A stretch of 64,000 nt of DNA. Origin: an uncultured Kiritimatiellota bacterium (GTDB lineage Bacteria > Verrucomicrobiota > Kiritimatiellia > RFP12 > UBA1067). The notes below the pieces were generated by a model. The model had not been told where the DNA came from, did not search any database, and worked only from the letters and a program-made list of their open reading frames with translations. Below are positions 10,994 through 55,313 of the stretch, piece after piece (positions within the stretch are counted from its first letter, which is position 1; each line of letters opens with the position of its first letter). The translations under genes and the position numbers were made by a program. Location of the stretch: positions 17,998-81,997 of the forward strand of contig CAKTUI010000003.1 in NCBI GenBank assembly GCA_934621385.1. The letters are read 5' to 3'.

Positions 10994-11067
10994 TTCTATC
11001 TCCAATCTTAAGAACAAAATTATCCCTGTCCGAGCACTCGCTGTGGCTGAACGAGTACACGCGCACT

Positions 11068-12512: not shown

Positions 12513-12532
12513 GGCAATGACACTCTCCCGGT

Positions 12533-13099: not shown

Positions 13100-13111
13100 G
13101 TTAACTGTCCT

Positions 13112-13456: not shown

Positions 13457-13472
13457 TAAGTTCTACACCCTC

Positions 13473-34840: not shown

Positions 34841-35592
34841 CAGTAGAAAACCTTCCAAAGAAAAAGTCCACGGCCAGGAGCCGTCTCAACACGCGCCGTA
34901 CGCGGCGCTTTCGCCTCCAGCAATTCCTTGACGGCAATGGGCTTTTCATTCCCCTTGCCAACGGACAACAGAAAGCCAACCATTGACCGAACCTGCTTGT
35001 AGAGAAAACCATCCCCACGGACAATGAACGTGTAGCGAGGCCCAACCCGCTTAATGACAAACGAGAAGATCGTGCGCTCCGTCGTCGCAAGCGGACGATT
35101 CGGATTCGCGGCAAAAGAGACGAAATCATGCTTGCCGACGAAATAGGACGCCGCCTCCTGCATAGCCGCCAAATCAAGCGTGCGATGGGTGAACGCCCAG
35201 TAGGGGGCCAGATGAGGCGGCAGAATGTCCGCCTGATAGAGTTGGTAGCGATACTCCTTGCCCTTCGCCGACAACTGGGCATTAAAATCGTCCTTGACGC
35301 GTTTAGCCCGCAGGATGCGAATCGCCATTGGCAACTGAGCATTCAACGCCCGAACGAGATTGGCCGGAGGTATTGCATGCGTCAGGCAGAAATCCGCCAC
35401 GTAGCCCTTCGCGTGCACCCCCGCATCCGTCCGGGACGAGCCGCGCACACGCACGGGCGCACCTTCGATGCGACCAACCGCCTCCTCGACGACTTGCTGA
35501 ATGCCGACGGCATTTTCCTGGTATTGCCACCCGGAATAGGCCGTCCCATCGTAGGCGATAACAACGCAATACTTATATTTCGTCTCGTTCAC
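34840..35592 (-). CDS. truA: tRNA pseudouridine synthase A
   Basis: GTG start at 35592 overlaps the upstream stop (GTGA). YDGTAYSGWQYQ and catalytic RTDAGVHA are present. Confidence 0.85.
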   Translation of the reverse strand: MNETKYKYCVVIAYDGTAYSGWQYQENAVGIQQVVEEAVGRIEGAPVRVRGSSRTDAGVHAKGYVADFCLTHAIPPANLVRALNAQLPMAIRILRAKRVKDDFNAQLSAKGKEYRYQLYQADILPPHLAPYWAFTHRTLDLAAMQEAASYFVGKHDFVSFAANPNRPLATTERTIFSFVIKRVGPRYTFIVRGDGFLYKQVRSMVGFLLSVGKGNEKPIAVKELLEAKAPRTARVETAPGRGLFLWKVFY

Positions 35593-36569
35593 GCGAACAG
35601 TTTCTTGAGTTCGCCGGCGCGGGACCGGCTCACAACGAGGACGGCATCCTTTGTCGAAACGACCACCAGGTCTTTCACCCCCAGCAGGGCAATCTTCGGT
35701 CCCTTGGCGATGCAAATGTTGTCCGCCGATTCAACGGTCTTCACGTCTCCGCTCACCACATTCCCCTCGGCATCATGTGGATAGTAACGCTCAAACGCCC
35801 CATAGCCGCCAACATCATCCCATCCAAAGTCGCCGGGGACAACGGCCACCGTCTCATACTTCTCCATCACGGCATAGTCGAACGAAATGCGGGGTAGCTC
35901 CTCGTACAAACGCCGCAATTTTGCCGTGGTATAGCGCGTTTCGGCAAGGCTCGACAGGGCCGGCGCATGCGCGGCAAATGCAGCCCGAAAAGTCGATGCC
36001 CGGGCAATGAACATCCCCGCATTCCACAGAAAGCCCTTCTCCAAGTAGCACTTCGCCTTCTCGGCATCAGGCTTCTCGACAAACTTGCCCGTTGCCGGGT
36101 CGACATAGCCAAAACCCGTGGCAGGATAGGTTGGGCGGATGCCAATCGTCACAATCGCACGACTTTTTCGAGCGATGCCAATCGCCTTCCGAACCGCCGC
36201 CCGAAATTGCGCCGGCCGCGCAACCAGCTGGTCACTTGAAAAGACCCCGATGACGGGGTCGCCTTCACCAGCGGAAACGCCAACGCCCAGCGCAACGGCG
36301 GCCCCCGTGTCGCGGCGCATCGGCTCGCCCACAACATTCTCCGAGGGGATTTCAGGCAGTTCACGCTTCGTCGCCCGAGTGAGGGCGCGCCCCGTGATGA
36401 CATGGACATTCTCGGGGGCGCACAAATCACCAAGACGATCAAAACTCAAGCGAATAAGGCTCTTTTCACCAAAAACGCTCAAGAATTGCTTCGGCCTCGC
36501 CGCCGTTGAGAGAGGCCAGAAGCGCTCGCCGCTTCCTCCCGCCAATATCACCGCCTGAAAGTTCTTCAT
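35589..36569 (-). CDS. Mannose-1-phosphate guanylyltransferase-like nucleotidyltransferase
   Basis: MKNFQAVILAGGSGERFWPLS..RPKQF. The start at 36569 coincides with the predicted transcription start, so the mRNA is probably leaderless. Confidence 0.75.
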   Translation of the reverse strand: MKNFQAVILAGGSGERFWPLSTAARPKQFLSVFGEKSLIRLSFDRLGDLCAPENVHVITGRALTRATKRELPEIPSENVVGEPMRRDTGAAVALGVGVSAGEGDPVIGVFSSDQLVARPAQFRAAVRKAIGIARKSRAIVTIGIRPTYPATGFGYVDPATGKFVEKPDAEKAKCYLEKGFLWNAGMFIARASTFRAAFAAHAPALSSLAETRYTTAKLRRLYEELPRISFDYAVMEKYETVAVVPGDFGWDDVGGYGAFERYYPHDAEGNVVSGDVKTVESADNICIAKGPKIALLGVKDLVVVSTKDAVLVVSRSRAGELKKLFA

Positions 36570-36575
36570 GCCCAT

Positions 36576-36584
36576 ATTATACCA
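36576..36584 (-). promoter_or_regulatory. Extended -10 promoter (TGGTATAAT), leaderless configuration
   Basis: Reverse complement of attatacca. The hexamer ends 7 nt before the ATG at 36569. Confidence 0.5.
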
Positions 36585-36829
36585 TAGATTGCGCGAAGGT
36601 CACCGTTCCTTGTTAAAGTCGGAAATTGTAAAATCGAATGAGTCACCCAAGCGAAGTGAAAAGTGCCGCGCCTGCGGCCATCTACGATCGCATTGAGACG
36701 ATGAGCGCATTCGCCCACGCCCTCATAAGCGAACGATTCATCCGCTGAACGCACGATTTCAACGCATAAAAGGCTTCTCGACGCATACCAACAGGTATGG
36801 CCCAGACGCGGCGAAGGCAACCGCCACGT

Positions 36830-36935
36830 TTCTCATGCCCAGCGGCGGCAGACTTACTGCCCAGTAAATCAAAACTTACTGCCCAGTAAGTCTAAAGTTA
36901 CTGCCCAGTAAGTCTCCGTCCGATGGGCACGGCAA
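36830..36935. repeat. Palindrome-array element, copy 1 (three ACTTACT-GCCC-AGTAAGT units inside an outer inverted repeat)
   Basis: Units lie at 36852-36867, 36874-36891 and 36897-36913. Flanks are ATGCCCAGCGGCGGCAG and CTCCGTCCGATGGGCAC. Same scaffold as 44317-44427. Confidence 0.8.
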
Positions 36936-37023
36936 TTTCGCGCCGTCCGCATCTCTCGAACGGACCGTCGGCAGGTGCGCCCTCCGCCCTCCTCACTTCC
37001 CCTCTCAGTTCGCGGCACTTTTT

Positions 37024-37032
37024 TGGTATAAT
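37024..37032 (+). promoter_or_regulatory. Extended -10 promoter (TGGTATAAT), leaderless configuration
   Basis: The hexamer ends 7 nt before the ATG at 37039. Confidence 0.5.
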
Positions 37033-37038
37033 GTCCGC

Positions 37039-37962
37039 ATGGTTTTTGCCGCGCTTATGCTCTGCGCCTCACTGGCGTTCTCCGAATCGAAGACGCTCGC
37101 CGTCCAGATTCGGCTGGACAGGCTTGGCTACTCCTGCAACACGATTGATGGGCAGTGGGGGCGCAAGTCCCAATCCGCCCTCGAACGCTACTGCGCCGAC
37201 CGCAAACTGCCGCTGCCGGCCACCCCCGAAGAGGCCTACGACCGTTTCTTCTCCGTTGGGAGCCGCCTTTTCCGGCAGGACGAGGTTTCGTCCGCCGATC
37301 TTGCCGCGCTCGTCTCCATTCCTACTGACCCCGCCGAAAAGTCCAGGCTCGTCCATCTCGGCTACGAATCCATCAAGGAGGCATTCGCCGAGCGCGGTCA
37401 TGTCAGCCGGCGGACGATTGAGCGGCTGAACCCAGGTCTCAACTGGGAGAAAATCCGCCCGGGGACGCGCATCACCCTCCCGGACTTCAGGAAAATGGCG
37501 GACGACCTTGCCGCCGGAACGCGCACCCTGCCAGGGGATGCCACGCGTCCAGAGGCGACGCTCGTCAAGATTTCCCTCTCCAAGTTCGAAATCGCCGCGT
37601 ATGACCGCAGCGGCACGCTGCTGGGGCTCTTCCCCTGCTCCATCGCAAAGGACAAGTCCAAAGCCCCCAAGGGAGAGCTCAAAATCGTCTCGCTCGTCCC
37701 CAATCCTAACTACACCTATACGCCCGACCATACGCCGCCTGGCGCAAAACGGTCTCGCTATATGTTCATGGATGGCCCGAACAATCCCGTGGGGGTCGCC
37801 TGGCTCGGACTCTCCCTCCCGGGCTACGGCATCCACGGCACACCCATCCCCGAGCGCATCGGCCGCGCCGAATCGCACGGATGCTTCAGGCTGTCGAACT
37901 GGAATGCCGCACGCCTCTACTCGCTTTGCCGCATCGGAACACGCGTCATCATCGAGCCGTAA
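37039..37962 (+). CDS. L,D-transpeptidase (YkuD domain) with peptidoglycan-binding-like N-terminal domain
   Basis: HGTPIPERIGRAESHGCFRL catalytic motif. The N-terminal part LDRLGYSCNTIDGQWGRKSQSALERY is PG_binding_1-like. Confidence 0.8.
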   Translation: MVFAALMLCASLAFSESKTLAVQIRLDRLGYSCNTIDGQWGRKSQSALERYCADRKLPLPATPEEAYDRFFSVGSRLFRQDEVSSADLAALVSIPTDPAEKSRLVHLGYESIKEAFAERGHVSRRTIERLNPGLNWEKIRPGTRITLPDFRKMADDLAAGTRTLPGDATRPEATLVKISLSKFEIAAYDRSGTLLGLFPCSIAKDKSKAPKGELKIVSLVPNPNYTYTPDHTPPGAKRSRYMFMDGPNNPVGVAWLGLSLPGYGIHGTPIPERIGRAESHGCFRLSNWNAARLYSLCRIGTRVIIEP

Positions 37963-37995: not shown

Positions 37996-38562
37996 TCAGG
38001 AAATCGACCGCGCCCGCATCATAAAGTCAACGAGCTTCGGAATCGATTTCACGCCCGGGGCCGTTTCAAGCGACCCTGACGCGTCAATGATGTCGGCACC
38101 CGACGAAAGTGCCGCGCCCAGATTCGCCGTGGAGATTCCTCCTGCCAGGACCGTCTTCCACGAACCAAAGCGCAGATCCGTCTCGCCATCCCCATGTGAA
38201 CTATCGAATAGGACGGCATCGCCCGGCGCACCACCAGCCAGCGTCCAGACCTCAAGCCCTGCACGATGAAGTTCACGCACATCGTCCTCGGTCGCACGAC
38301 GATGCAACTGGACGATGCCAAAGCCGACTTCCCGCGCAATTTCCCGGCAGTCCGCAGGCGCGGCATCCGTAAAGACCCCCACGACTTTCGCCCGTCCGCT
38401 GAGACCCGCGACAATCTCGCGTGCGCATGAAACCGTCACCTGCCGCAGACTCCCCTTGGCGAAGATAAGCCCAAGATAATCCGCCCCGAGCCGCTCGGCC
38501 TCCGCCGCAAATGCCGCAGTGCGGATTCCGCAAATCTTAATCTGAGGACGATGCCCCTTCAT
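37996..38562 (-). CDS. trpF: Phosphoribosylanthranilate isomerase
   Basis: Start at ATG 38562. IKICGIRT, DYLGLIF, VQLH and LAGGI are present. Confidence 0.75.
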   Translation of the reverse strand: MKGHRPQIKICGIRTAAFAAEAERLGADYLGLIFAKGSLRQVTVSCAREIVAGLSGRAKVVGVFTDAAPADCREIAREVGFGIVQLHRRATEDDVRELHRAGLEVWTLAGGAPGDAVLFDSSHGDGETDLRFGSWKTVLAGGISTANLGAALSSGADIIDASGSLETAPGVKSIPKLVDFMMRARSIS

Positions 38563-38567
38563 CGGCC

Positions 38568-39404
38568 TTAGGGACGCTCCAGCAGCCCGGTCGTCCACTC
38601 GCCAAACGTCTTTCGCCCGACCTCCCTCAGCCCATGCGACTCGTAGGTCTTCAAGACTTCCGGGTAGAGTTCCGTCAGAATGCCCGAGATAATCAGCCGA
38701 CGACCAACGCAAGGGACAATCTCGGGGGCAAAGCGAATCAGAAGCGGGCCAAGGATATTGGCCGCAACGAGGTCGGACTTCGGGAGTTCGCGGCGAATCC
38801 GCGCCCCGAGACCATATTTGACATAATCGACCTTCACGCCGTTGAACGCGGCATTCTCGGCCGAGGCATCGACCGCCTCCTGATCCACATCAAAGCCGAA
38901 GACAGGCGAGAAGCCCAGTTTAGCCGCCGCAATGGAGAGAATTCCGCTACCGCACCCCATGTCAAGGAAACTTCCCCCCTGGTCGGCGAGTTCGTCGATG
39001 AACTCAAGGCACGCCCGCGTCGTCTCGTGCTTACCCGTCCCAAACGCCATACCGGGATCAAGTGTAATGACGACCCCCTCGGTTGGCATCGGTTCCCACG
39101 GCGGATGGACGACGACACGCCGCCCAATCCGTTCCGTCTTGAAATGGCGGCGATAGGAAAGCTTCCAGTCCTCATCCGGAATCTGCGCAACTTCAATCGG
39201 GGCCGACACGCCAACAATCGAAAGTGCCGCGCCAAGGCAGCGTTTCGCCTCTTCCGTCCGATCCGCCTCGGGGAAGTAGATCTGAACCTGCGTCAGCCTC
39301 TCCTCGATGTCGCGATAGGACGACAAAATGAAATCCCCTCCATCGAAGACCTCGAAGAGGGGATTCACATAACGCTCTTCTATCGAGCAGTAGACCTTGT
39401 TCAT
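38568..39404 (-). CDS. prmA: Ribosomal protein L11 methyltransferase
   Basis: LDPGMAFGTGKHETT and FLDMGCGSGILSIAA are present. Start at ATG 39404 (the longer ORF reaches 39425). Confidence 0.8.
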   Translation of the reverse strand: MNKVYCSIEERYVNPLFEVFDGGDFILSSYRDIEERLTQVQIYFPEADRTEEAKRCLGAALSIVGVSAPIEVAQIPDEDWKLSYRRHFKTERIGRRVVVHPPWEPMPTEGVVITLDPGMAFGTGKHETTRACLEFIDELADQGGSFLDMGCGSGILSIAAAKLGFSPVFGFDVDQEAVDASAENAAFNGVKVDYVKYGLGARIRRELPKSDLVAANILGPLLIRFAPEIVPCVGRRLIISGILTELYPEVLKTYESHGLREVGRKTFGEWTTGLLERP

Positions 39405-39446
39405 GCGCAGTCCGAAAGCGACCAAGCCGACAAAAGTCGACGAGGC

Positions 39447-39662
39447 TTACTTAGCCGCCGCACGAGCAACGAGCTTGCGGACGACGGTCGGACGCTGGAC
39501 GAGCACACGCACCGCCTCATCGCCCATGAGACTGACGTCATCTTCCTTCATCCCGAACTTGACGAGACGACGGCGCTGCGCGGCATTCTTGCGCGACTTA
39601 CCGGCCGGCGTCTTGCACGGACGGACATGAGATTCCTTACGAAGTGTACGACCTGTACCCAT
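39447..39662 (-). CDS. Small highly basic protein (71 aa), unassigned
   Basis: -10 element (GGTATAAT, 39705-39712) and a purine-rich RBS lie upstream. Lys/Arg-rich. I could not match it to a specific ribosomal protein. Confidence 0.4.
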   Translation of the reverse strand: MGTGRTLRKESHVRPCKTPAGKSRKNAAQRRRLVKFGMKEDDVSLMGDEAVRVLVQRPTVVRKLVARAAAK

Positions 39663-39792
39663 TTTCTACCTCTATCTTTCTTTCCTTGGGAAAAATGTGC
39701 GCATATTATACCTTATTTCAGTGAAGTTTGCAAGGCGACCCAGCCCACAGCCATTCGCCCACAATTACCCCCTTGCTTTTTAACCGAAAAAA

Positions 39793-39801
39793 TGGTTAAA
39801 T
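39793..39801 (+). promoter_or_regulatory. Extended -10 promoter (TGGTTAAAT) with TTGCTT -35 at 17-nt spacing
   Basis: Upstream of the Rrf2-family regulator gene. Confidence 0.4.
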
Positions 39802-39831
39802 TCACATCTGAACTACGAATTGTCGAAAGAG

Positions 39832-40332
39832 ATGAATAAAGATACGGATACGGAAAAAGCTTCCTCCCGCGCCTCGTGCGCCCAGAGAGGGCTCAAGGTC
39901 TCCGCCAAGACCCGCTACGGTCTGCGCATCCTGCTGGATGTCGCCGCCCATAACCGGGACGCGAAGCCACGCTCAACGGCCGAAATCTCGCAATCCCAGC
40001 ACATTTCGGAGAAGTTCATCTCGCGCCTCGTCCTTCCTCTCAGGGAAGCCGGGCTCATTCGCTCCGTCCGCGGTTCGGGGGGCGGCTTCCGCCTCGCGCG
40101 CTCCCCCGAGGACATCACGCTTCTCAAGATTGTCGAGACCATGCAGGGTCCCCTCTCCATCCTCGACTGCCTCTCCCATTCCAAGAAGTGTTCTCGCGAA
40201 GCCGACTGCCTTGCGCGGCGAATCTGGTCCGATGTCAACACGGGCTTTATGAATGTGCTCGCCCGCATTACCCTCGCCAAGATTCTCGACCGTTCGTCCA
40301 TCGCCACGGTGACGATGGACTTCTGCATCTGA
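39832..40332 (+). CDS. Rrf2-family transcriptional regulator (IscR/NsrR-like, Cys-containing)
   Basis: KTRYGLRILLDVA..STAEISQSQHISEKFISRLVLPLREAGLIRSVRGSGGGFRLA and C..C..C in DCLSHSKKCSREADC. Confidence 0.8.
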   Translation: MNKDTDTEKASSRASCAQRGLKVSAKTRYGLRILLDVAAHNRDAKPRSTAEISQSQHISEKFISRLVLPLREAGLIRSVRGSGGGFRLARSPEDITLLKIVETMQGPLSILDCLSHSKKCSREADCLARRIWSDVNTGFMNVLARITLAKILDRSSIATVTMDFCI

Positions 40333-40426
40333 CACCACGCCCCGCGTGAGCACTTCTGGGGCGCATTTCGTCCCATTCCGCGACAGTTTGTCACAGGCGC
40401 ATCCTTTCACTTCCCGGCTTTTGCCT

Positions 40427-40442
40427 TGGCACGGGCTATGCT
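40427..40442 (+). promoter_or_regulatory. Candidate sigma54 promoter (TGGCACG-n4-ATGCT)
   Basis: TGGCACGGGCTATGCT lies ~45 nt upstream of the first hsp20 ATG. -24 GG and -12 GC are correctly spaced. Confidence 0.45.
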
Positions 40443-40486
40443 CCCTCGTTTGGTGTTGAAACAAACGATTGAAAGGAGTTCAAGAC

Positions 40487-40900
40487 ATGAACACATTGGT
40501 AAACATTGATCCGTGGGGGTTTCTGGATGACCTGTTCGATGCGAACAGCCGCGCATTCAGGAGCATGAGGGCACGCGCCGCTGGGCGGTTCCCGCCCGTG
40601 AACGTGTTCTTGGACGATGATGCCGTTATCATCGACCTGGAACTGCCGGGCAAGACGGCGAAGGATGTCTCGCTCACACTTGAACCGCAGGCCGTCGTCG
40701 TGGCGGACAAGCCTGCCGAAACGACCGATCCAGCAACGGGCAAGGCCGTTGAGGCTCGCCCTGCGTGGAGCCGTCGCCTCGAACTGCCCTTCCGCGTCAA
40801 CGCCGACAAGGCGAACGCCAAGTTCGAAAATGGCATTCTGCGCATCGAACTGCCCAAGGCCGAGGCCGACGGCGTTCGGCACATCGCCATCCAGGGCTAA
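40487..40900 (+). CDS. Hsp20/alpha-crystallin small heat-shock protein
   Basis: AAGGAG RBS before ATG 40487. VIIDLELPG..WSRRLELPF..ENGILRIELPK is present. Confidence 0.8.
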   Translation: MNTLVNIDPWGFLDDLFDANSRAFRSMRARAAGRFPPVNVFLDDDAVIIDLELPGKTAKDVSLTLEPQAVVVADKPAETTDPATGKAVEARPAWSRRLELPFRVNADKANAKFENGILRIELPKAEADGVRHIAIQG

Positions 40901-40944
40901 CGAATGGGTAATCAACGAAAGGCAAAGAGGAAAGGAAACTTGAA

Positions 40945-41280
40945 ATGAACGAGGAAAAATATGTGGTTCCAACGGCAATCCTGTCGGAGAAGCCTGATGA
41001 ATATGAACTGAAGGTCGAAGTTCCCGGCATCGGGAAGGACGAGGCCGAGTTGCATGTCGAGGGTAAGACCTTGACGCTGAAGACGCACACGAAGTACCAG
41101 AACCCGGCCGGCTTTCGGCAGGTCGCGGCAGAATTCGAGCGTCCGAACTACGCCATGAGTGCCGATCTGCCCGAACTCGCCAACCCGGCGACGCTCGCGG
41201 CGAAACTGGAGAACGGTATTCTGACCGTCACCGTCAAGAAACGCGCCGAGACGCAGGCCAAAAAGATTGAGATTCACTAA
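40945..41280 (+). CDS. Hsp20/alpha-crystallin small heat-shock protein (second copy)
   Basis: YELKVEVPGIGKDE..LENGILTVTVKK. Confidence 0.75.
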   Translation: MNEEKYVVPTAILSEKPDEYELKVEVPGIGKDEAELHVEGKTLTLKTHTKYQNPAGFRQVAAEFERPNYAMSADLPELANPATLAAKLENGILTVTVKKRAETQAKKIEIH

Positions 41281-41303
41281 ATCTCAGTCGAAATGACAGC
41301 GAA

Positions 41304-41344
41304 GACCCCCGATGAGCCAAGGCTCGTCGGGGGTCTTTTTTTTT
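41304..41344. terminator. Bidirectional intrinsic terminator (hsp20 / lysC)
   Basis: GACCCCCGATGAGC-CAAG-GCTCGTCGGGGGTC followed by T9. Confidence 0.8.
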
Positions 41345-41365
41345 ACGCCCAAGGGAGCGTGGAAC

Positions 41366-42733
41366 TCAGCGTCCGAAGAACGCCTTGTAAAGCGCACGAA
41401 CGGCGGCATCCCGATCCTGCTGGCGAATGGCAATCATGAACGAGACCTCGCTCGACCCCTGGTTGACCATCGACAGCGAGATGCCGGCCGAGGCAAGCGC
41501 CAGGCAGGCCTTCGCAAACATACCGGGCGTATAGCACATACCTTCGCCGACAATCATGATGATCGTGATGTCGCGCTCAACGGCGACGTTGTCGGGTTCA
41601 AGTTCGCGGCGAATCGCCTGAATGACGCGGCGCTCCTTCTCCTTCGACAGATTCACGCCCTTCACGACCACGCACTGAGAATCGACCCCGGACGGCATGT
41701 GCTCATAGGCGATGTGCTCGTCTTCAAGAATCTGAAGCAACCGACGACCAAAGCCAATCGCCCGGTTCATCAGGTACTTCTCGACGACGATGTTGCAGAA
41801 GTCATCCTGCGAGGCGATGCCGACGACCGTGCCCGGCACAACCCGCCGCGACTGGACAATCATCGTGCCCGGCTCGGACGGATGATTCGTGTTGCGGATG
41901 TTGATTGGAATCCGCGCCCGGACGGCCGGAATCACCGCGTCATCATTGAACACGCCAAAGCCCGCATAGGCGAGTTCGCGCATTTCGCGGTAGGTCATCG
42001 TCGGGATGCCCTCTCCATCCTTCACCTCGGGAACAATGCGCGGATCGACTGGATAGACCGAATCGACATCCGTGAAGTTCTCGTAGACATCGGCGCAGAC
42101 GGCAGCCGCAAGAATCGAACCGGTGATGTCACTTCCGCCGCGCGGGAAGGTTGCGACCTTGCCTTCCTTCGTATAGCCGAAGAAGCCCGGATAGATGACG
42201 ATTCCGTCGAAATTGGAGAACGCACGGGAAAGCGTCGCGTAGCTGGTCGGGTCAAGCGTTGCATCGCCGAACTCGCCCATCAGGATCATCCCCGTCTCGC
42301 GTGGGCTTGCATACCGCGCCTTCCGTCCACGCGCCGTAAACGCAACGGCCACAAGCTTCGCGTTGTTATCCTCACCCGCCGCCTTCAACAAATCCATGAA
42401 CTCGGCAGGTGAAAGCGACATGCGTTGCGCCAGCCGCCCCTTCAGATCCGCCTCGATTTCGTGGACAATGTCATCGCCGAGGCGCAACTCCGTCGCAATC
42501 TCGGCATACCGCTCGACGACCGCACCGAACGCCCGATCCGTGTTTTCGCCTTCGAGCGCCGTCTTGGCGAGTGCAATCAGAAGGTCCGTCACCTTCGTAT
42601 CGCCCGAATGTCGTTTACCGGGGGCGGAGACGACGACAATCCGCCGCGTCGGATCCGCCAGGACGATGTCAATGACCTTGTTGAGCTGAGCCGCATTGGC
42701 AAGCGAGCTGCCACCAAACTTACATACTTTCAT
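41366..42733 (-). CDS. lysC: Aspartate kinase
   Basis: MKVCKFGGSSL start at 42733. VVVSAPG is present and the C-terminal region is ACT-like. Confidence 0.85.
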   Translation of the reverse strand: MKVCKFGGSSLANAAQLNKVIDIVLADPTRRIVVVSAPGKRHSGDTKVTDLLIALAKTALEGENTDRAFGAVVERYAEIATELRLGDDIVHEIEADLKGRLAQRMSLSPAEFMDLLKAAGEDNNAKLVAVAFTARGRKARYASPRETGMILMGEFGDATLDPTSYATLSRAFSNFDGIVIYPGFFGYTKEGKVATFPRGGSDITGSILAAAVCADVYENFTDVDSVYPVDPRIVPEVKDGEGIPTMTYREMRELAYAGFGVFNDDAVIPAVRARIPINIRNTNHPSEPGTMIVQSRRVVPGTVVGIASQDDFCNIVVEKYLMNRAIGFGRRLLQILEDEHIAYEHMPSGVDSQCVVVKGVNLSKEKERRVIQAIRRELEPDNVAVERDITIIMIVGEGMCYTPGMFAKACLALASAGISLSMVNQGSSEVSFMIAIRQQDRDAAVRALYKAFFGR

Positions 42734-42771
42734 TGTCGTTGAGTTCCGATGAATGGACAACATTCGTTAGT

Positions 42772-44064
42772 TCAGAGGACGCGGAGCGAGACGGGCAAAC
42801 CCGAAATCATACCCGACCGGACGATTTCATCCAACGCCTTCATCAAATCAGCCGTCTTCGCCTCGTGCGTCAGCACGACGACGGGGGCGAAGCCGTCCGT
42901 TCCGGCCGCCTTCTGGGAGGCCGCCGAGATTGAGACCCCATGCGCACCGAGCGTCGTTGCGATAACACCAAACGCACCCGGCTTGTCGGCCACATTGAAG
43001 CGGAGATAGTAGGAGGACGAAATCTCGCCCGCCGCACGCAACTTCATCTGCCCTTGCGCATAATCAGGGATGCCACGCGCATAGCGCGTCTCACCGTGCG
43101 CCAGGTTGCGGGCAATGTCACCAATGTCACCAACGACCGTCGAGGCCGTCGGTGCGCGTCCAGCACCCCGCCCGTAGTACATCGTGTAGTCGCTCATGTC
43201 ACCCTTGACCCACGCCGCGTTGAACGCATCGTTGACCGACGCGAGCATGTGCGTCATCGGCACAAGCGTCGGGCCGACACCGACCTCGACCTCATCACCG
43301 ACACGCGCAACACGCGCCAGGAGCTTGATCCGATAGCCGAAATCTGCCGCGTAACGCACATCCTCGCCCGCCAAGTTGCGGATGCCCTTCACATCCACCT
43401 CGTCAACCTTCGGCTGGAAGCCATACGCCAGCGCGGCAAGAATACAGGCCTTATGGGCCGTGTCGAACCCATCGATATCGAGGGATGGGTTCGCTTCGGC
43501 ATAACCAAGACGCTGGGCCTCCTTCAGGACCTCGTCAAACGGCAGCCCTTCATTCTCCATCCGCGTCAGAATGTAGTTGCAGGTTCCGTTCAGAATCCCG
43601 TGGATGGACTCAATCGTATTGCCGGCGAGACCTTCGCGCAGGACGCGGATGATGGGGATGCCACCACCGACGGAAGCCCCGAAATAGATGTCCACGCCAT
43701 TCTTCTTGGCCGTATCGAAAATTTCCGCACCATATTCGGCCAGCAGTTTCTTGTTGGCCGTCACAACGCACTTGTGGTTGTTGAGAGCCTCCAGGACGAA
43801 CGTCTTCGCGATACCCGTTCCACCAATCGTCTCGACGACAATCTGAACCTCCGGGTCGGCAATCACGCCCTTGGCATCCGTCGTCAGCACACCCTCCGGC
43901 ACGGCGATGCCGCGATCCGTCGTAATGTCGAGATCGGCAATCTTGCGCAGGACAATATCCACGCCCAGCCGCTGCGCCATGACATCGCGATGCTTCAGGA
44001 GGCCGTCCGCGACACCCGCACCAACCGTCCCAAACCCGAGTATCCCTACTCCAATCTGCTTCAT
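42772..44064 (-). CDS. hom: Homoserine dehydrogenase
   Basis: GILGFGTVGAGV NAD-binding site, central catalytic domain and C-terminal ACT domain. Confidence 0.85.
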   Translation of the reverse strand: MKQIGVGILGFGTVGAGVADGLLKHRDVMAQRLGVDIVLRKIADLDITTDRGIAVPEGVLTTDAKGVIADPEVQIVVETIGGTGIAKTFVLEALNNHKCVVTANKKLLAEYGAEIFDTAKKNGVDIYFGASVGGGIPIIRVLREGLAGNTIESIHGILNGTCNYILTRMENEGLPFDEVLKEAQRLGYAEANPSLDIDGFDTAHKACILAALAYGFQPKVDEVDVKGIRNLAGEDVRYAADFGYRIKLLARVARVGDEVEVGVGPTLVPMTHMLASVNDAFNAAWVKGDMSDYTMYYGRGAGRAPTASTVVGDIGDIARNLAHGETRYARGIPDYAQGQMKLRAAGEISSSYYLRFNVADKPGAFGVIATTLGAHGVSISAASQKAAGTDGFAPVVVLTHEAKTADLMKALDEIVRSGMISGLPVSLRVL

Positions 44065-44316
44065 CTGTTTCGTCCTTCCATCTGTCAGAAAATCGGCATA
44101 TTTTACTCTTTTCGGCGGCTAAAAGTCAATGCCGCCCCGAGAAGAATTGCGCGGAAACCGCGCAAGAGTCGAGCCAACCCATTCCGTGATTTCCGCAAAC
44201 GCCGCGCGTTTCTTCACCGCACCATCCGGTCCGATTCGGCACGCGGCAACACGCTTGTCGGCAGGACGGAACACGGACAAGCCGACGCCCGATTCAAGTC
44301 CTGCCCATCAGCGCAG

Positions 44317-44427
44317 ATTCTCGTGCCCATCGGACGGAGACTTACTCTATGAGTAAATCAAAACTTACTCATAGAGTAAGTCCAAAGTTACTCATAGAGT
44401 AAGTTTCTTTCTGATGGGCACGAGAAT
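44317..44427. repeat. Palindrome-array element, copy 2 (three ACTTACT-CATAG/CTATG-AGTAAGT units inside an outer inverted repeat)
   Basis: Outer IR is ATTCTCGTGCCCATC .. GATGGGCACGAGAAT. The scaffold (AGACTTACT..AGTAAATCAAAACTTACT..AGTAAGTC.AAAGTTACT..AGTAAGT) is nearly identical to copy 1, but the unit centres differ. Confidence 0.8.
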
Positions 44428-44656
44428 TCCAGGCGATACCGACACCGCGCCGCCGGGATGCGCAGGAGAGTCCCATCTACAGCCTTTCTCTCGGCAAAAT
44501 GACAAGAACAAGAGAAAAATGTGACACTTTCAAGAGAAATCCCTCATCGGCAACGGAAAGCGGGGCACTGCTCACGTCGGGAATGCCGCTTCTGATGGTC
44601 TATGTCCGCGACAGGAATGCGCCGAACGATGACGCGTGGACAGTCGACGCGAAAGA

Positions 44657-44665
44657 TGGTAGACT
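44657..44665 (+). promoter_or_regulatory. Extended -10-like promoter (TGGTAGACT), near-leaderless
   Basis: Ends 8 nt before the ATG at 44674. Confidence 0.35.
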
Positions 44666-44673
44666 ACTTCCCC

Positions 44674-45966
44674 ATGTTCAGCCGCGGCAGTTCTATCGGT
44701 TCATTCTGGAAGCACGCAATCTTCCTCTTTCTCGCCCTCCGGGTTGGCGATTTCGTCAATCTGGCGGCGGGGCTTTGGTTTGTCCCGAAGTACATCTCAC
44801 CCCAGGAACTGGGCGCGGTTCTGCCCGTCACGACCTTTGCGACCTTTCTCTCTCTCCCCGTCTTTGCCTTCGCCATGACGGTCATGCGCGAGAGTGCGCA
44901 CCTTTCGGCCCTTGACGAGCGCGGCAAACTGAAGACCCTGCTTCGGGGTGTCTTCATCGTCATTGCCGTCCTGGCGGCCCTTTCACTCGTCGGTGCCGCG
45001 CTGGCCATTCCTCGGTTTTTGACCGCCATGCGCGTACCCGACGCGCTTGTCGGGTTTCTTGTCGTCGCGGCGGCCTTCCTCGGTTGCATCGCCCCCGTCT
45101 ATTCCGATGCCCTCCAGTCCCTTCGCAAGTTCAACGCCCTCGGACTCATTGAAATCATCGGCTCGCTTGCCCGGTTCGCTGTCCTCGCGATCACCATGCC
45201 CCTTCGCGCCCTCGCCGGCTATTTTGCCGGGCAGACTCTGCCGCCGCTCGTCCGCATGGCCGGCAGCGTGTTCGCGCTTCGCCGCGACCTCTCCGTCCCT
45301 GCCGCGCCCTACTGGTCCCGCCCCATTGTCCGCAAGATCGCCCTCATCTTCATTGGAATTCTCGCCTACCAAATTGCCCCGATGCTGGCAGGCCTTCTTG
45401 AGCAGTCCGTCCTTCGGACGCACCTCTCCGACTTTGATTCAGCCGGCTTCTACATGATTAGCCGATTCTCCGACTTCCTCTACTATCTGACATTTCCCCT
45501 CCTGCTCGTCATGTTCCCCTACACGGCCAATGCCTCCGAGACCGGCAAGTCGACGCGGCCGTTCGTCCTGTCCTGCAGTCTCCTCACCCTCGGCGCGGCA
45601 GTTCTGATGATGGTCGTCTACCACTTCTTCGGGCGCGAACTCCTTGCCCTGCTCCCACACGGCGCGGACTACGCGACACTTGCGACCTTCATGCCGTTCC
45701 TCGTCCTCATCACCGCCCTCACCGCCTGCCAGACCTTTTATACGAATGCGGAAGTCTCAGCCGGACGCTTCGGCTTCCTCGGCTGGTTCCTCCCCGTCAA
45801 CGCGGCGTATTCCCTCGCACTGTTCACATTGGCAGGGACCATCACCAGCCTCCGCACGATGCTGGTATGGATGGCCGCTCTTGCCGCGCTTCGCTTCGTC
45901 CTCGCCCTCGGATTCATGTGCCGAGCGCACAGGACGGGCACTCGCCGTTCGGCGAACTGCCGTTAG
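44674..45966 (+). CDS. Polytopic membrane protein, polysaccharide-flippase-like (Wzx/MOP-type)
   Basis: About 12 hydrophobic helices. Start chosen at MFSRGSS (the ORF track starts at 44602). The family call rests on topology only. Confidence 0.45.
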   Translation: MFSRGSSIGSFWKHAIFLFLALRVGDFVNLAAGLWFVPKYISPQELGAVLPVTTFATFLSLPVFAFAMTVMRESAHLSALDERGKLKTLLRGVFIVIAVLAALSLVGAALAIPRFLTAMRVPDALVGFLVVAAAFLGCIAPVYSDALQSLRKFNALGLIEIIGSLARFAVLAITMPLRALAGYFAGQTLPPLVRMAGSVFALRRDLSVPAAPYWSRPIVRKIALIFIGILAYQIAPMLAGLLEQSVLRTHLSDFDSAGFYMISRFSDFLYYLTFPLLLVMFPYTANASETGKSTRPFVLSCSLLTLGAAVLMMVVYHFFGRELLALLPHGADYATLATFMPFLVLITALTACQTFYTNAEVSAGRFGFLGWFLPVNAAYSLALFTLAGTITSLRTMLVWMAALAALRFVLALGFMCRAHRTGTRRSANCR

Positions 45967-46580
45967 TCGCCGATACGGACGCGACGGCCCTCAATGCGGT
46001 ACTTGCCGGACGACAGGATATTGAGCGCCTCCGGATACGCCAGATGCTCCTGAACCTGGATGCGGGCATGGAGCGATTCGGGCGTGTCGTCCTCCAAGAC
46101 GGGGACGGCTTTCTGCACGAGAATCGGACCTGAATCGGTGCCCGCATCAACGAAATGAACGGTCACGCCCGCGACCTTGCACCCATAGTCGAGCGCCTGC
46201 GTCCAGCTGTGGACGCCCGGGAAGGCCGGCAGGAGCGCCGGGTGAATGTTCAGGACGCGATTGGGAAAGGCGGCGAGAAGTTTCGGCTTCACAATGCGCA
46301 TGAAGCCGGCGAGCACGACGGTGTCGACCCCGGCCGACTTGAGCAGTTCAATGCAGTGGTCTTCGGCCACGCCCTCAAGTTTCGTCTTCCAGGGCGAACA
46401 GTCGAGATATTGGCAGGGAATGCCGTGCCGACGCGCCCGTTCCAAGATCCGCGCATCCGCCACGTCCGCCAGCACCAGACGGATGTCCGCATCAAGCGTC
46501 CCCGCGTCAATCGCGTCGACAATCGACTGCATATTCGAACCAGCCCCCGACCCGAGGACACCCAAATGCAACTTGCTCAT
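45963..46580 (-). CDS. purN: Phosphoribosylglycinamide formyltransferase
   Basis: VLGSGAGSN..VVLAGFMRI..NIHPALLPAF..G..VHFVD.G.D.GPI. Confidence 0.85.
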   Translation of the reverse strand: MSKLHLGVLGSGAGSNMQSIVDAIDAGTLDADIRLVLADVADARILERARRHGIPCQYLDCSPWKTKLEGVAEDHCIELLKSAGVDTVVLAGFMRIVKPKLLAAFPNRVLNIHPALLPAFPGVHSWTQALDYGCKVAGVTVHFVDAGTDSGPILVQKAVPVLEDDTPESLHARIQVQEHLAYPEALNILSSGKYRIEGRRVRIGD

Positions 46581-47962: not shown

Positions 47963-47972
47963 AAGTGCGTGT

Positions 47973-47981
47973 ATTATACCA
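47973..47981 (-). promoter_or_regulatory. Extended -10 promoter (TGGTATAAT)
   Basis: Reverse complement of attatacca. The predicted start is ~4 nt before the xseB ATG. Confidence 0.5.
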
Positions 47982-48142
47982 CAAACCGCTCGTTCTTGGG
48001 CTTGCGCGAAACTTCCGCCCGGCCATCTTGCCTCCTTGCGCAAGATGAAGCACGAAGGCGAAAAAACAGAGCAAGTTCGCCGCCTCGCGGCAAGTAAAGG
48101 CGTGCGGTCAACGAGGTGAGCTCTGCAAAGTTTCGCGGTTTT

Positions 48143-50086: not shown

Positions 50087-50160
50087 GATTCCATCCGCCG
50101 CGTCGCGGCCTGTGGTCGGTCTCTCACCCCTCTCGCGCAAGCCCCCGAACAGGCGGTTTA

Positions 50161-50169
50161 TGGTATAAT
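50161..50169 (+). promoter_or_regulatory. Extended -10 promoter (TGGTATAAT)
   Basis: 31 nt upstream of the ATG at 50200, which has an AAGGAG RBS. Confidence 0.5.
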
Positions 50170-50199
50170 ACCGACAAATCCATTAAGGAGTATCGACAC

Positions 50200-55007: not shown

Positions 55008-55080
55008 AGGCGAGGCGAATAGCTTGCCAATGGTGCGGACGAAGGGGGCAACCCTCCGTCCGCATTCTGTTTTGGCGTGC

Positions 55081-55140
55081 GCGATTCGTCATAATAGTGT
55101 GCACCATGCCGAGATGGGGCACACTATTATGACGAATCGC
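55081..55140. repeat. Perfect 22-bp inverted repeat (GCGATTCGTCATAATAGTGTGC-n16-GCACACTATTATGACGAATCGC)
   Basis: Read directly. Followed by an A8/T-rich stretch, so it could act as a terminator for 54627-55007. Confidence 0.7.
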
Positions 55141-55168
55141 GGTGCACAACAAAAAAAACTTTTCCCCA

Positions 55169-55236: not shown

Positions 55237-55313
55237 CGGAGCGTAGCGCAGCCTGGTAGCGCGTTTGCTTCGGGAGCAAAAGGCCGAGGGTTCAAATCCC
55301 TCCGCTCCGACCA
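55237..55313 (+). tRNA. tRNA-Pro (anticodon CGG), CCA encoded
   Basis: 77-nt cloverleaf read by hand: CGGAGCG/CGCTCCG acceptor, anticodon loop TTCGGGA, T arm GAGGG-TTCAAAT-CCCTC. Confidence 0.9.

What the first reader, a model, noticed from the sequence alone, without database searches (positions are those of the whole stretch)
36830..36935. Palindrome-array element, copy 1: three phased ACTTACT-GCCC-AGTAAGT units inside an outer inverted repeat, in a divergent promoter region
Seen: gACTTACTGCCCAGTAAatcaaaACTTACTGCCCAGTAAGTctaaaGTTACTGCCCAGTAAGT. Unit starts are 22-23 bp apart, about two helical turns. The array is bracketed by ATGCCCAGCGGCGGCAG on the left and CTCCGTCCGATGGGCAC on the right, which are partly complementary. 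It lies between the leaderless promoters of the guanylyltransferase-like gene (36569, minus) and the L,D-transpeptidase gene (37039, plus). As RNA it would fold into an outer stem plus three 7-bp hairpins, a cloverleaf-like shape. As DNA it looks like three cooperative dimer operators. I do not recognise the family.
Basis: seen in the sequence. Interest (0 to 1): 0.65.

Follow-up and report, generated by a model that had tools for sequence, protein, structure and literature searches.

The report
Dispersed triple-hairpin intergenic repeat of Kiritimatiellae
The three-palindrome array is real, but it is one copy of a short non-coding hairpin-forming repeat scattered through the intergenic DNA of an uncultured Kiritimatiellae bacterium: an undescribed family of the MITE/REP/BOX kind, not a control site special to the two neighbouring genes.

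Summary
Window 36852-36913 holds three 18-nt palindromes in exact 22-nt phase, set between partly complementary arms. The pattern matches 3 times against 0.03 expected by chance.

It is the core of a ~105-nt foldback element, and a second copy lies at 44317-44427. A related Kiritimatiellae MAG, ~95% identical to the window, carries at least 28 element loci. All are intergenic, lie in every kind of gene context and occur in both orientations.

- **Anatomy:** the hairpin stems are almost invariant. The eighth stem pair covaries between G:C and C:G (59 of 63 units complementary, 31 expected). The 2-nt centre is free.
- **Rates at two orthologous loci:** stems changed at 2/84 positions, loops at 15/27 and flanking intergenic DNA at 74/705.
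- **Strain differences:** unit number varies (3 to 2, twice independently) and one strain has a 149-nt deletion.
- **Flanks:** they are themselves repeated modules, found in shuffled combinations.
- **Polarity:** the '+' strand sits on the C-rich strand in 25 of 28 loci.

Rfam, plasmid, phage, viral and metagenome searches gave nothing, and I found no transposase, no target-site duplication and no published description.

My best reading is a lineage-specific, non-autonomous REP/BIME/BOX-like repeat that works as single-strand hairpins bound by an unidentified trans-acting protein. The operator reading is not supported. Interest is moderate.

The parts
36695..37065 (+). Composite repeat around copy 1. 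It consists of a left module of about 140 nt ('LA'), the core, and a right module ('R1'). R1 runs into the YkuD promoter and the first ~9 codons of the gene.
   Evidence: All-against-all BLAST shows window 36695-37065 shared with 27 other loci, best L138 at 74.5% over 365 nt. Alignment of flanks.
36830..36935 (+).
   Evidence: nhmmer with the family profile matches 36836-36929 on the + strand at 94.6 bits, against 67.1 bits on the - strand. Folds.
36835..36851 (+). Left arm of copy 1. It holds a terminal box (ATGCCCAGC, a degenerate form of the family's GTGCCCATC) and a variable purine-rich inner arm.
   Evidence: The box columns pair in 18-22 of 22 copies, while the inner-arm columns are often unpaired.
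36852..36869 (+). Unit 1: ACTTACT-GCCC-AGTAAAT. The family-wide A in AGTAAAT gives a C.A mismatch.
36874..36891 (+). Unit 2: ACTTACT-GCCC-AGTAAGT, a perfect 8+2+8 palindrome.
36896..36913 (+). Unit 3: AGTTACT-GCCC-AGTAAGT. The family-wide G in AGTTACT gives a G.G mismatch.
36914..36930 (+). Right arm of copy 1: a pyrimidine-rich inner arm plus the terminal box CCGATGGGCAC.
   Evidence: (I3).
44317..44427 (+). Core foldback element, copy 2 (W2). It is a near-perfect 111-nt palindrome. Arms are at 44323-44339 and 44405-44421. Units are at 44340-44358, 44363-44381 and 44386-44404, with loops CTATG, CATAG and CATAG.
   Evidence: I1: 54-nt arms, 83% complementary; -72.3 kcal/mol as RNA. The orthologous copy in the MAG is L153/L190.
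44311..44459 (.). Segment deleted in one strain (L173). The 149 nt hold all of copy 2 and are bounded by the direct repeat GCGCAG.
35589..36575 (-). Flanking gene: mannose-1-phosphate guanylyltransferase-like (NTP_transferase, ManC beta-helix). It is a neighbour, not part of the element.
   Evidence: Promoter-like site at 36603-36576.
37039..37962 (+). Flanking gene: YkuD L,D-transpeptidase. Its promoter and first codons are homologous to the ends of R1-type repeat modules elsewhere.
42772..44064 (-). Flanking gene of copy 2: homoserine dehydrogenase.
44602..45966 (+). Flanking gene of copy 2: a membrane protein with no Pfam hit. Its real start is probably the ATG at 44675, which follows a promoter-like site at 44637-44665.

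Best explanation
The array is the core of a lineage-specific, multi-copy, non-coding foldback repeat of an uncultured Kiritimatiellae species group. It is a new family of the MITE / REP-BIME / BOX kind.

**Anatomy (shown).** The element is about 105 nt long. Two inverted terminal boxes (GTGCCCATCGG ... CCGATGGGCAC) enclose variable inner arms. Between these arms lie two or three tandem 22-nt modules. Each module is an 8+2+8 palindrome, ACTTACTS-NN-S'AGTAAGT, followed by a conserved 4-nt spacer.

**Working form (inferred).** I infer that the element works as extruded or single-stranded hairpins. These would form in DNA exposed at the replication fork or as cruciforms, or less likely in RNA. A trans-acting protein would read the invariant stems and spacers sequence-specifically. 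It would need only pairing at the eighth stem position and would ignore the 2-nt tip. The best working analogy is an HUH/Y1-type enzyme of the RAYT or IS200/IS605 TnpA kind, which would also spread the element. Such an enzyme has not been found.

**Evolution (pattern shown, mechanism inferred).** Copies interact with each other by slippage and gene conversion seeded on the identical stems. That would account for fast loop replacement, gain and loss of units, deletions and shuffled flanking modules. The synteny break next to copy 1 also fits such interaction.

**Local effect.** Any effect on the manC-like and YkuD genes is incidental. The element is not a locus-specific operator.
For: **Family membership**
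- The genome-wide pattern scan found 28 loci in one Verrucomicrobiota/Kiritimatiellae MAG (JBNMKZ01). Many lie at contig ends, as expected for an assembly-breaking repeat.
- The window and the MAG are 95% identical over 8 kb.
- The family profile matches one copy per locus.

**Context**
- All 30 copies are intergenic, in tandem, convergent and divergent gene contexts.

**Hairpin constraint**
- Stems never vary in 17 of 24 stem pairs across 22 distinct copies.
- The closing pair switches between G:C and C:G (13/8, 13/6, 11/10) with few unpaired cells.
- Across 63 units, 59 are complementary at that position against 31.4 expected. The rare intermediates GCCG and CGGC are present.
- The centre dinucleotides are balanced with their reverse complements: GG 18 / CC 15, CT 4 / AG 3.

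**Constraint in situ**
- Two orthologous pairs (W2/L153 and L193/L123) give stems 2/84 changed, flanks 74/705 (p=0.007) and loops 15/27 (p=3e-8).

**Instability among 10 strain assemblies**
- Unit number drops from 3 to 2 on two different haplotype backgrounds, and one strain has a 149-nt deletion between GCGCAG repeats.

**Mosaic flanks**
- The left modules LA, LB, LC and LD combine with different right modules, named R1 to R5 (LD with a sixth type).
- Several copies have identical cores inside flanks that are only 88-93% identical.

**Rearrangement**
- The MAG lacks the element upstream of YkuD, and synteny breaks exactly there: rplM replaces the manC-like gene.

**Polarity**
- The + orientation scores about 35 bits above the - orientation.
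- The '+' strand is on the C-rich strand in 25 of 28 MAG loci (p=3e-5) and in both window copies.
- The same holds in 7 of 7 independent divergent or convergent contexts.

**Published parallels**
- IS200/IS605 elements insert in the orientation of the lagging-strand template (PMC5027513).
- BOX elements have variable internal modules, alternative flanking modules and clustered insertions (PMC3049150).
Against: - No enzyme has been found. There is no transposase or recombinase near either window copy (Pfam).
- No Y1/HUH-like ORF appears in the 317 kb held.
- There is no GTAG or CGTC tag next to the hairpins, which defines classical REPs.
- No target-site duplication rises above a mismatched-pair control.
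- No clean empty site is bounded by the terminal boxes. The one deletion seen ends in flanking GCGCAG repeats and looks like slippage.
- The strand polarity is about as strong as that of genes: 78.5% of genes lie on the G-rich strand. A transcription-linked explanation is therefore not excluded.
- Fold energies show no preferred strand; the + strand is more stable in 11 of 24 copies.
- The conserved mismatches in units 1 and 3 and the conserved spacers show that more than simple pairing is being preserved.
Confidence: 0.55

Rival explanations
1. Duplex protein-binding array. Three dimers of a host DNA-binding protein (nucleoid-associated, or a global regulator) would sit on one face of the helix at 22-bp spacing. 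The element would be kept because it organises DNA or tunes nearby promoters.
For: - The half-sites ACTTACT/AGTAAGT recur every 11 bp in alternating orientation, and units recur every 22 bp.
- Stems and spacers are nearly invariant, while the centre of each palindrome, the part a dimer usually does not contact, is free.
- Stems are conserved at orthologous sites.
- Relatives carry other 22-nt-period arrays with CCATCGG or GATGCGCATC boxes.
- BIMEs are known to bind IHF and gyrase (established knowledge; PMC2817692 abstract).
Against: - A dimer that accepts either G or C at position 8 gives no reason for the two half-sites to match, yet 59 of 63 do.
- The element is polar with respect to strand asymmetry.
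- It shows no association with promoters or with a gene class.
- In the window it lies 90-250 nt from the -10 boxes.
- The loops turn over faster than neutral flanks, which binding alone does not explain.
Confidence: 0.2
2. Transcribed RNA element. This could be an sRNA, or a stem-loop cluster acting as a 3'-end stabiliser, attenuator or terminator, as described for REP, ERIC and BOX transcripts.
For: - The fold is very stable, with z about -8 on both strands.
- The orientation bias is of the same size as that of genes.
- In tandem-gene contexts, 8 of 10 copies have the '-' strand co-directional with the flanking genes.
- In that orientation each hairpin is followed by TTTAG or TTTTG, and unit 1's C.A mismatch becomes a U.G wobble (sequence).
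Against: - No Rfam family matches, even at E<=10.
- No promoter-like site points into the element.
- About a quarter of copies, including both window copies, lie between divergent genes, where read-through from neighbours is not expected.
- Wobble pairs show no strand asymmetry: at the outer box pair there are 6 G.U against 4 A.C. Fold energies show none either.
- Elements lie 170-500 nt from the upstream stop codon, not next to it.
- There is no run of T after the outer stem.
Confidence: 0.15
3. Classical cut-and-paste MITE. The element would be a deletion derivative of a DDE-transposase IS that shares the GTGCCCATCGG terminal inverted repeats. The internal palindromes would be extra transposase-binding sites.
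For: - Terminal inverted repeats are present; the element is small and non-coding, has many copies and lies only in intergenic DNA.
- Copies are absent from the loci examined in sister species (hom 92% and 84% identical).
Against: - No target-site duplication appears at any boundary offset.
- No IS with these ends occurs in the 317 kb held. No multi-copy ORF was found; the only repeated regions among the loci are short non-coding modules, apart from partial 66-75% matches between large repetitive genes.
- Palindromic symmetry and repeat homology run past the boxes into mosaic flanks, so there is no sharp element edge.
- The strand polarity and the position-8 covariation are not expected for a duplex DDE substrate.
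Confidence: 0.1
4. Site-specific recombination sites. Each 8+2+8 palindrome would be a crossover site with a 2-nt overlap (hix/res-like) for a serine recombinase, and three sites would form an accessory synapse.
For: - The site geometry of two 8-bp inverted arms around a 2-nt centre, with three sites in about 66 bp, recalls hix sites and the three-subsite res (recalled from knowledge, not tested).
- Flank combinations are shuffled, and a synteny break coincides with an element.
Against: - No recombinase gene lies near any copy examined.
- Centres differ between units of one element and between copies, which would block productive exchange.
- res subsites differ in spacing, whereas these are identical.
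Confidence: 0.04

Closest known systems
BOX elements of Streptococcus pneumoniae and S. suis (boxA-boxB(n)-boxC)
   Same: - Both are composite intergenic repeats with two end modules that pair with each other around a tandem array of internal modules.
- The number of internal modules varies between strains.
- In S. suis the same internal module occurs with alternative end modules.
- Elements cluster and insert into one another.
- Both are predicted to fold tightly (PMC3049150, compared).
   Different: - The phylum is unrelated, and I have no sequence similarity to report.
- boxB is 45 nt and not a palindrome. Here the module is a 22-nt unit built on an 18-nt palindrome with invariant stems.
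- BOX has been proposed to be mobilised by ISSpn2 because the TIRs are similar. No such partner is known here.
- No strand polarity is reported for BOX in the text I read.
REP / BIME / REPIN elements with RAYT (TnpA-REP) Y1 transposases
   Same: - Both are high-copy extragenic hairpin repeats.
- Stem substitutions keep complementarity.
- Conserved mismatches in the stem are needed for RAYT binding in E. coli.
- Repeats form mosaic clusters with linkers, and the number of tandem units at a locus varies between strains.
- A single-strand mechanism has been proposed at the lagging-strand template (PMC3333891, PMC2817692, PMC3733652).
   Different: - There is no GTAG or CGTC tetranucleotide at the hairpin foot.
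- The hairpins are shorter (7-8 bp), A/T-rich and arranged as a phased direct triplet inside a separate inverted repeat.
- No RAYT gene has been found so far.
IS200/IS605 family and their non-autonomous derivatives (PATEs)
   Same: - Protein recognition of hairpins in single-stranded DNA.
- Orientation bias tied to replication direction (PMC5027513).
- No target-site duplication.
   Different: - IS200/IS605 ends are two different subterminal hairpins without terminal inverted repeats, and insertion is 3' of a fixed tetra- or pentanucleotide.
- Here the element is two-fold symmetric, with inverted boxes and three like hairpins.
- The TTAC inside ACTTACT and the TCAA in the first spacer match the IS608 cleavage tetranucleotides. 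I treat that as coincidence.
Correia / ERIC / NIME-type MITEs and intergenic mosaics
   Same: - Elements of 100-150 nt with terminal inverted repeats and strong secondary structure.
- Intergenic location and lineage-restricted distribution.
- Neisseria intergenic mosaic elements share the mosaic arrangement (established knowledge; PMC3184786, PMC10969869).
   Different: Correia elements duplicate a TA target and carry an IHF site. No target-site duplication and no such site are seen here. None of these families has an internal array of phased identical palindromes.

Membership tests
MITE | Terminal inverted repeats | tested here: met
   Box columns 10-17 pair with columns 99-106 in 18-22 of 22 distinct copies. 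The consensus is GTGCCCATCGG / CCGATGGGCAC.
MITE | Small, non-coding, multi-copy, mostly intergenic | tested here: met
   The core is about 105 nt. There are 28 loci in one MAG plus 2 in the window, and none lies inside a called gene.
MITE | Target-site duplication flanking the inverted repeats | tested here: inconclusive
   No direct repeat exceeds a mismatched-pair control at boundary offsets 0-15. The flanks are repeat modules themselves, so the true edge is uncertain.
MITE | Autonomous IS with the same ends in the same host | tested here: inconclusive
   None occurs in the 317 kb held. The rest of the genome could not be read.
REP / REPIN / BIME | Imperfect palindrome of 20-40 nt with a conserved GTAG or CGTC tag at its foot | tested here: not met
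   The bases 5' of the hairpin feet are GCAG, CAAA and CTAA on the + strand, and GAAA, TTAG and TTTG on the - strand. No GTAG or CGTC is present. The defining feature is taken from PMC3733652 and PMC3333891.
REP / REPIN / BIME | Cognate RAYT gene flanked by the repeats (REPtron) | not testable with these tools
   This needs the whole genome. No Y1-like ORF appears in the 317 kb held, using a probe recalled from memory.
REP / REPIN / BIME | Stem substitutions that keep pairing; extragenic; high copy number | tested here: met
   59 of 63 closing pairs are complementary against 31.4 expected. Pair counts are and gene contexts.
BOX elements | End modules A and C around a variable number of tandem B modules | tested here: met
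   Elements with two and three units occur in the MAG. Two strains independently dropped from 3 to 2 units. This is an architectural match only.
BOX elements | Sequence homology to boxA, boxB and boxC | not tested
   No BOX sequence was compared. The host phylum is unrelated.
IS200/IS605-derived elements | Orientation tied to the lagging-strand template | tested here: inconclusive
   25 of 28 copies have the '+' strand on the C-rich strand (p=3e-5), and 7 of 7 do so in divergent or convergent contexts. Genes show a 78.5% bias of the same sign, and no ori/ter map is available.
IS200/IS605-derived elements | Two different subterminal hairpins, no terminal inverted repeats, fixed target tetranucleotide | tested here: not met
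   The element has inverted terminal boxes and three like hairpins. No constant flanking tetranucleotide is seen (listing).
Transcription-factor operator array | Sits at or over promoters of a coherent set of genes | tested here: not met
   Copies occur in any gene arrangement, including between convergent genes and next to tmRNA and tRNAs. The window copies lie 90-250 nt from the -10 boxes.
Known RNA families (Rfam), tRNA-like cloverleaf | Match to a covariance model or a tRNA/tmRNA finder | tested here: not met
   There are no Rfam matches at gathering score or at E<=10 over the element. ARAGORN finds only two ordinary tRNAs elsewhere. The minimum-energy fold is a rod, not a cloverleaf.
Resolvase res / invertase hix-type sites | Adjacent serine recombinase gene; subsites with matching crossover dinucleotides | tested here: not met
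   No recombinase lies within 10 kb of either window copy. The centre dinucleotides differ within and between copies.

The most novel reading that the evidence does not exclude
The units are recognition hairpins for a not-yet-identified single-strand DNA enzyme, either an HUH/Y1 relative or something new. Together they would form a REP/RAYT-like system in the PVC superphylum with its own grammar.

- The grammar would be a phased triplet of sequence-invariant hairpins inside inverted boxes.
- Copies would be inserted or maintained in a fixed orientation relative to replication.
- The loop tips would be replaced much faster than neutral DNA.

A stronger version is that the strand-oriented copies have been domesticated as polar chromosome-architecture signals.
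Probability: 0.2. Interest if true: 0.65.

Novelty: new variant of a known kind. Interest (0 to 1): 0.42.

Why it matters
Kiritimatiellae are almost entirely uncultured, and I found no description of their repeat content.

- **Practical effect.** This family breaks short-read assemblies, since many copies sit at contig ends. It marks a synteny breakpoint between two genomes that are 95% identical. It also supplies sequence that overlaps a promoter and the first codons of a gene. It therefore matters for binning, annotation and strain typing of this group.
- **Mechanistic value.** The family is a compact natural experiment. Invariant stems, one covarying pair, free tips that turn over more than five times faster than flanking DNA, and a strong strand polarity occur together. 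That combination points to single-strand hairpin biology outside the Proteobacteria, where REP/RAYT systems have been studied. If the partner enzyme were found, it would extend that class.
- **If it is only a selfish foldback repeat.**

Tried and rejected
**Database and collection searches**
- A loose two-unit pattern in IMG/VR gave 87 stretches, all chance or unrelated.
- A strict junction pattern in the metagenome collection gave 0 hits.
None matched the family profile, and the double-strand hits L241, L273 and L274 are an unrelated repeat.
- blastn of the 371-nt composite against plasmids and phages gave no match.
- Rfam gave nothing at gathering score or at E<=10.

**Other lineages with the same heptamer**
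- Tenacibaculum, myxobacteria, Acinetobacter and Bacteroidaceae carry ACTTACT/AGTAAGT arrays in the genome scan.
- I reject these as family members. They have different spacing and flanks and score nothing with the family profile.
- The number of independent lineages is about what a 20-base pattern should give by chance in 596 Gb (inference).

**Structure and sequence tests**
- The terminal-box motif GCCCATCGG alone is not enriched in the window: 32 matches against 26 expected. GATGSGCAY has only 10 hits.
- The cloverleaf fold is not the minimum-energy structure.
- An RNA strand preference is not seen.
- I first read the loops as hypermutable at strain level. The 10 strain assemblies keep them unchanged. 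They change at the 2-5% divergence scale instead.
- The search for target-site duplications was negative.

**Looking for a partner enzyme or an empty site**
- The Y1 transposase hunt with a remembered IS608 TnpA sequence and an HUH...Y regex was negative but weak.
- Pfam on the low-GC parts of the window found a SMEK-domain protein and polysaccharide-synthesis genes, with no transposase.
- Orthologues of YkuD in relatives (85%, 87%, 74% and 67% identity) have different neighbours, so they gave no clean empty site.
Full report
**Observation**

The quoted sequence is present at 36830-36935. The three units start at 36852, 36874 and 36896, exactly 22 nt apart. ACTTACTNNNNAGTAAGT with up to 2 mismatches gives 3 matches in 64 kb against 0.03 expected. 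The 12-mer TACTGCCCAGTA occurs three times exactly. The arms at 36835-36851 and 36914-36930 are partly complementary.

As a single strand the 106 nt fold with z about -9 as DNA and about -8 as RNA on either strand. The predicted fold is one long foldback in which unit 1 pairs with unit 3 around the unit 2 hairpin. It is not a cloverleaf.

The neighbours are an NTP_transferase/ManC-type gene at 35589-36575 (-) and a YkuD L,D-transpeptidase at 37039-37962 (+). Each has TGnTATAAT 6-7 nt before its ATG. The element ends about 90 nt before the YkuD -10 box and about 230 nt before the other one.

**A family, not a locus**

A second copy lies at 44317-44427, between homoserine dehydrogenase and a membrane-protein gene. 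It has loops CTATG, CATAG and CATAG in place of GCCC, and it is a near-perfect 111-nt palindrome.

I scanned one genome per GTDB species for ACTTACT-N3-6-AGTAAGT-N3-6-ANTTACT. This found 28 loci in a single MAG, 'Verrucomicrobiota bacterium CM_BacUBA_137.30' (JBNMKZ01). The other hits were unrelated or chance matches. Many of the MAG copies lie at contig ends, as expected for a repeat that breaks assemblies.

The MAG is 95% identical to the window over 38537-46539. Protein names place both in the Kiritimatiellae. A profile of the core finds exactly one copy per locus and no diverged extras in about 0.6 Mb held. It scores the '+' orientation about 35 bits above the reverse, so the element has a polarity despite its symmetry.

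**Anatomy**

The element is built as follows:
- Inverted terminal boxes, GTGCCCATCGG and CCGATGGGCAC.
- A variable purine-rich left inner arm and a pyrimidine-rich right inner arm, which often do not pair.
- Two or three direct 22-nt modules.

Each module is ACTTACT-S-NN-S'-AGTAAGT plus a conserved spacer (TCAAAA or TCTAAA). Across 22 distinct copies the seven outer stem pairs are almost invariant. They include two family-wide mismatches, AGTAAAT in unit 1 and AGTTACT in unit 3.

The eighth pair switches between G:C and C:G: 13/8, 13/6 and 11/10 in the three units. Over 63 units it is complementary in 59, against 31.4 expected if the two sides were independent. The rare non-pairs GCCG and CGGC look like intermediates.

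The 2-nt centre is free. Each dinucleotide is about as common as its reverse complement (GG 18 / CC 15, CT 4 / AG 3, AA 2 / TT 1). Loops within one element tend to belong to the same class.

**Surroundings**

None of the 30 copies lies in a called gene. They occur between tandem, convergent and divergent genes, and next to tmRNA and tRNA genes.

The flanks are repeats too. Copy 1 is embedded in a 371-nt composite (36695-37065) shared at 70-88% identity with other loci. Left modules (LA, LB, LC, LD) and right modules (R1 to R5; LD pairs with a sixth type) occur in shuffled combinations. Some copies have identical cores inside flanks that are only 88-93% identical. Palindromic symmetry fades gradually beyond the boxes. 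No target-site duplication exceeds a mismatched-pair control at any assumed edge.

**Evolution**

*Within the species.* Ten assemblies of the same species come from different samples. Copy 1 is stable in all of them. Copy 2 lost one unit twice, on different haplotypes. Five strains share a stem substitution and a 2-nt arm deletion. One strain lost copy 2 entirely through a 149-nt deletion (44311-44459) between GCGCAG direct repeats.

*Between the window species and the MAG lineage.* Two orthologous pairs could be compared, W2/L153 and L193/L123. The table pools them.

| Region | Positions changed | Comparison with flanks |
|---|---|---|
| Hairpin stems | 2/84 | p=0.007 |
| Flanking intergenic DNA | 74/705 | reference |
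| Loops | 15/27 | p=3e-8 |

In L123 against L193 all three loops were replaced: GGGC, GGGC, GCGC against CAAG, CAAG, CCCG. The idiosyncratic arms stayed orthologous.

*At the copy 1 site.* The MAG has no element upstream of YkuD, and synteny breaks exactly there, with rplM in place of the manC-like gene. The last ~70 nt, holding the promoter and first codons, are 97% conserved. R1 modules elsewhere contain decayed copies of that same promoter and start region.

*In relatives.* The loci of sister species examined (hom 92% and 84% identical) have no copy. More distant relatives carry other 22-nt-period arrays upstream of the YkuD orthologue.

**Polarity**

The element's '+' strand lies on the C-rich strand in 25 of 28 MAG loci (binomial p=3e-5) and in both window copies. 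Allowing for contig-end halves of the same copy, the count is still about 22 of 25.

The bias holds in all 7 independent divergent or convergent contexts, where neighbouring transcription cannot set an orientation. In loci with mixed gene directions it follows third-codon-position skew rather than gene direction.

Genes are themselves 78.5% co-oriented with the G-rich strand. A replication-linked cause and a transcription-linked cause therefore cannot be separated here.

**What it is not**

- It is not a known RNA family or a tRNA-like gene.
- It is absent from plasmid and phage records.
- It is absent from IMG/VR.
- No transposase or recombinase lies within 10 kb of either window copy or in the low-GC parts of the window.
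- No Y1-like ORF appears in the 317 kb held, although that test is weak.
- Full-text searches found no description of such repeats in Kiritimatiellae or Verrucomicrobia beyond GTAG-type REPs in Opitutus.

**Mechanism**

Shown:
- The element is a dispersed, polar, non-coding foldback family.
- Its stems are conserved in place.
- One stem pair evolves by compensatory change.
- Its tips turn over faster than neutral DNA.
- It is unstable in unit number.

Inferred:
- Compensatory change at position 8 means that the position is paired in the functional form. The functional form is therefore a hairpin or cruciform rather than a plain duplex.
- Invariance of the other stem bases, the spacers and even the mismatches means that a protein reads the sequence.
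- In E. coli the RAYT needs both a sequence tag and a stem mismatch (PMC3333891). IS200/IS605 elements show replication-linked orientation (PMC5027513).
- The economical model is therefore a REP/RAYT-like or IS200-like single-strand system. Copy-to-copy conversion and slippage would explain the loop replacement, the unit changes and the mosaic flanks.

I put about 0.95 on 'dispersed repeat family, not a local operator' and about 0.4 on the single-strand-enzyme mechanism. Together they give 0.55 for the statement as a whole. The rivals are a duplex binding array (0.2), a transcribed RNA element (0.15), a classical DDE MITE (0.1) and recombinase sites (0.04).

**Comparison with known systems**

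In architecture the element works most like pneumococcal and S. suis BOX elements: end modules around a variable tandem module, alternative end modules, and nesting (PMC3049150). In evolutionary behaviour it is most like REP/BIME.

It fails the defining REP test, because it has no GTAG or CGTC tag. It fails the IS200/IS605 end structure. It lacks the target-site duplication and the partner IS that would make it a textbook MITE. I therefore file it as a new variant of the small-dispersed-palindromic-repeat kind, not as a member of any named family.

**Verdict**

- The operator and divergent-promoter interpretation does not.
- Interest is moderate (0.42). A new repeat family is unsurprising in itself. 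The combination of phased invariant hairpins, one covarying pair, rapid loop replacement and strand polarity is unusual, and it can be tested once a closed genome exists.

Noticed in passing
L184:40-103 and L186:195-247: Relatives with YkuD 87% and 74% identical carry different tandem arrays with the same 22-nt period upstream of the orthologous gene. L184 has TTTTAGACCACCATCAGAATTA x2.9 and L186 has AATAGATGCGCATCTTTTTGTT x2. Their boxes (CCATCGG, GATGCGCATC) resemble the terminal box of the element. A 22-nt phase seems to be a recurring theme of intergenic repeats in this clade.
   Followed up: partly
window 36576-37038 versus L190:17027-17431: Synteny between the window species and the ~95%-identical MAG breaks exactly at the intergenic region that holds copy 1. 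The window has the manC-like gene and truA there, while the MAG has rplM and rpsI. The MAG region instead contains other repeat modules shared with L138 and L112.
   Followed up: partly
window 36996-37065; L138:7297-7357: The YkuD promoter (TGGTATAAT) and the first ~9 codons are homologous to the outer end of 'R1' repeat modules at unrelated loci. Either the repeat supplied the promoter and N-terminus, or flanking DNA was copied along with the element.
   Followed up: partly
window 47971-48009 and 50133-50171: A 39-nt inverted repeat (87% complementary) brackets the GH2 gene. Each arm contains a TGGTATAAT-type promoter-like box, and one arm also matches L138:163-209.
   Followed up: no
window 55080-55141: A 28-nt-arm near-perfect palindrome (96% complementary, 6-nt gap) lies about 95 nt upstream of tRNA-Pro (55237-55313).
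   Followed up: no
window 61196-61465: Copies of a 54-nt-period tandem repeat (reported as 4 overlapping 108-nt copies, 78-100% identity) lie inside the ORF at 60651-62300, which has no Pfam hit, within a polysaccharide-synthesis gene cluster.
   Followed up: no
window 8000-14000: A low-GC island (44-49% against ~59%) holds a SMEK-domain protein (10040-11071) and three ORFs with no Pfam hit. It looks like horizontally acquired DNA.
   Followed up: partly
window 13799-21349: A giant ORF of 2516 aa has internal repeats that also resemble 636-857. A diverged paralogue is present in L091 and L154.
   Followed up: no
L088, L109, L132, L134, L136, L155, L166: Bacteroidaceae and Streptococcaceae-labelled MAG contigs carry a different dispersed repeat built on the same heptamers (…ACTTACTtggtcgAGTAAGTagtACTTACTttgcc…). 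It is multi-copy within single MAGs and often at contig ends.
   Followed up: no
L093, L104, L110, L117 and other Tenacibaculum loci: A conserved double palindrome, GGTAAGTcagtgACTTACTtttAGTAAGTcactgACTTACT, occurs at one locus in many Tenacibaculum species. It also has a 22-nt period and is probably an operator or terminator. It is unrelated to the family studied.
   Followed up: no
L138:6219-6572: The tmRNA gene of the MAG lies about 550 nt from an element copy. Three tRNAs lie within 700 nt of the copy in L128.
   Followed up: no
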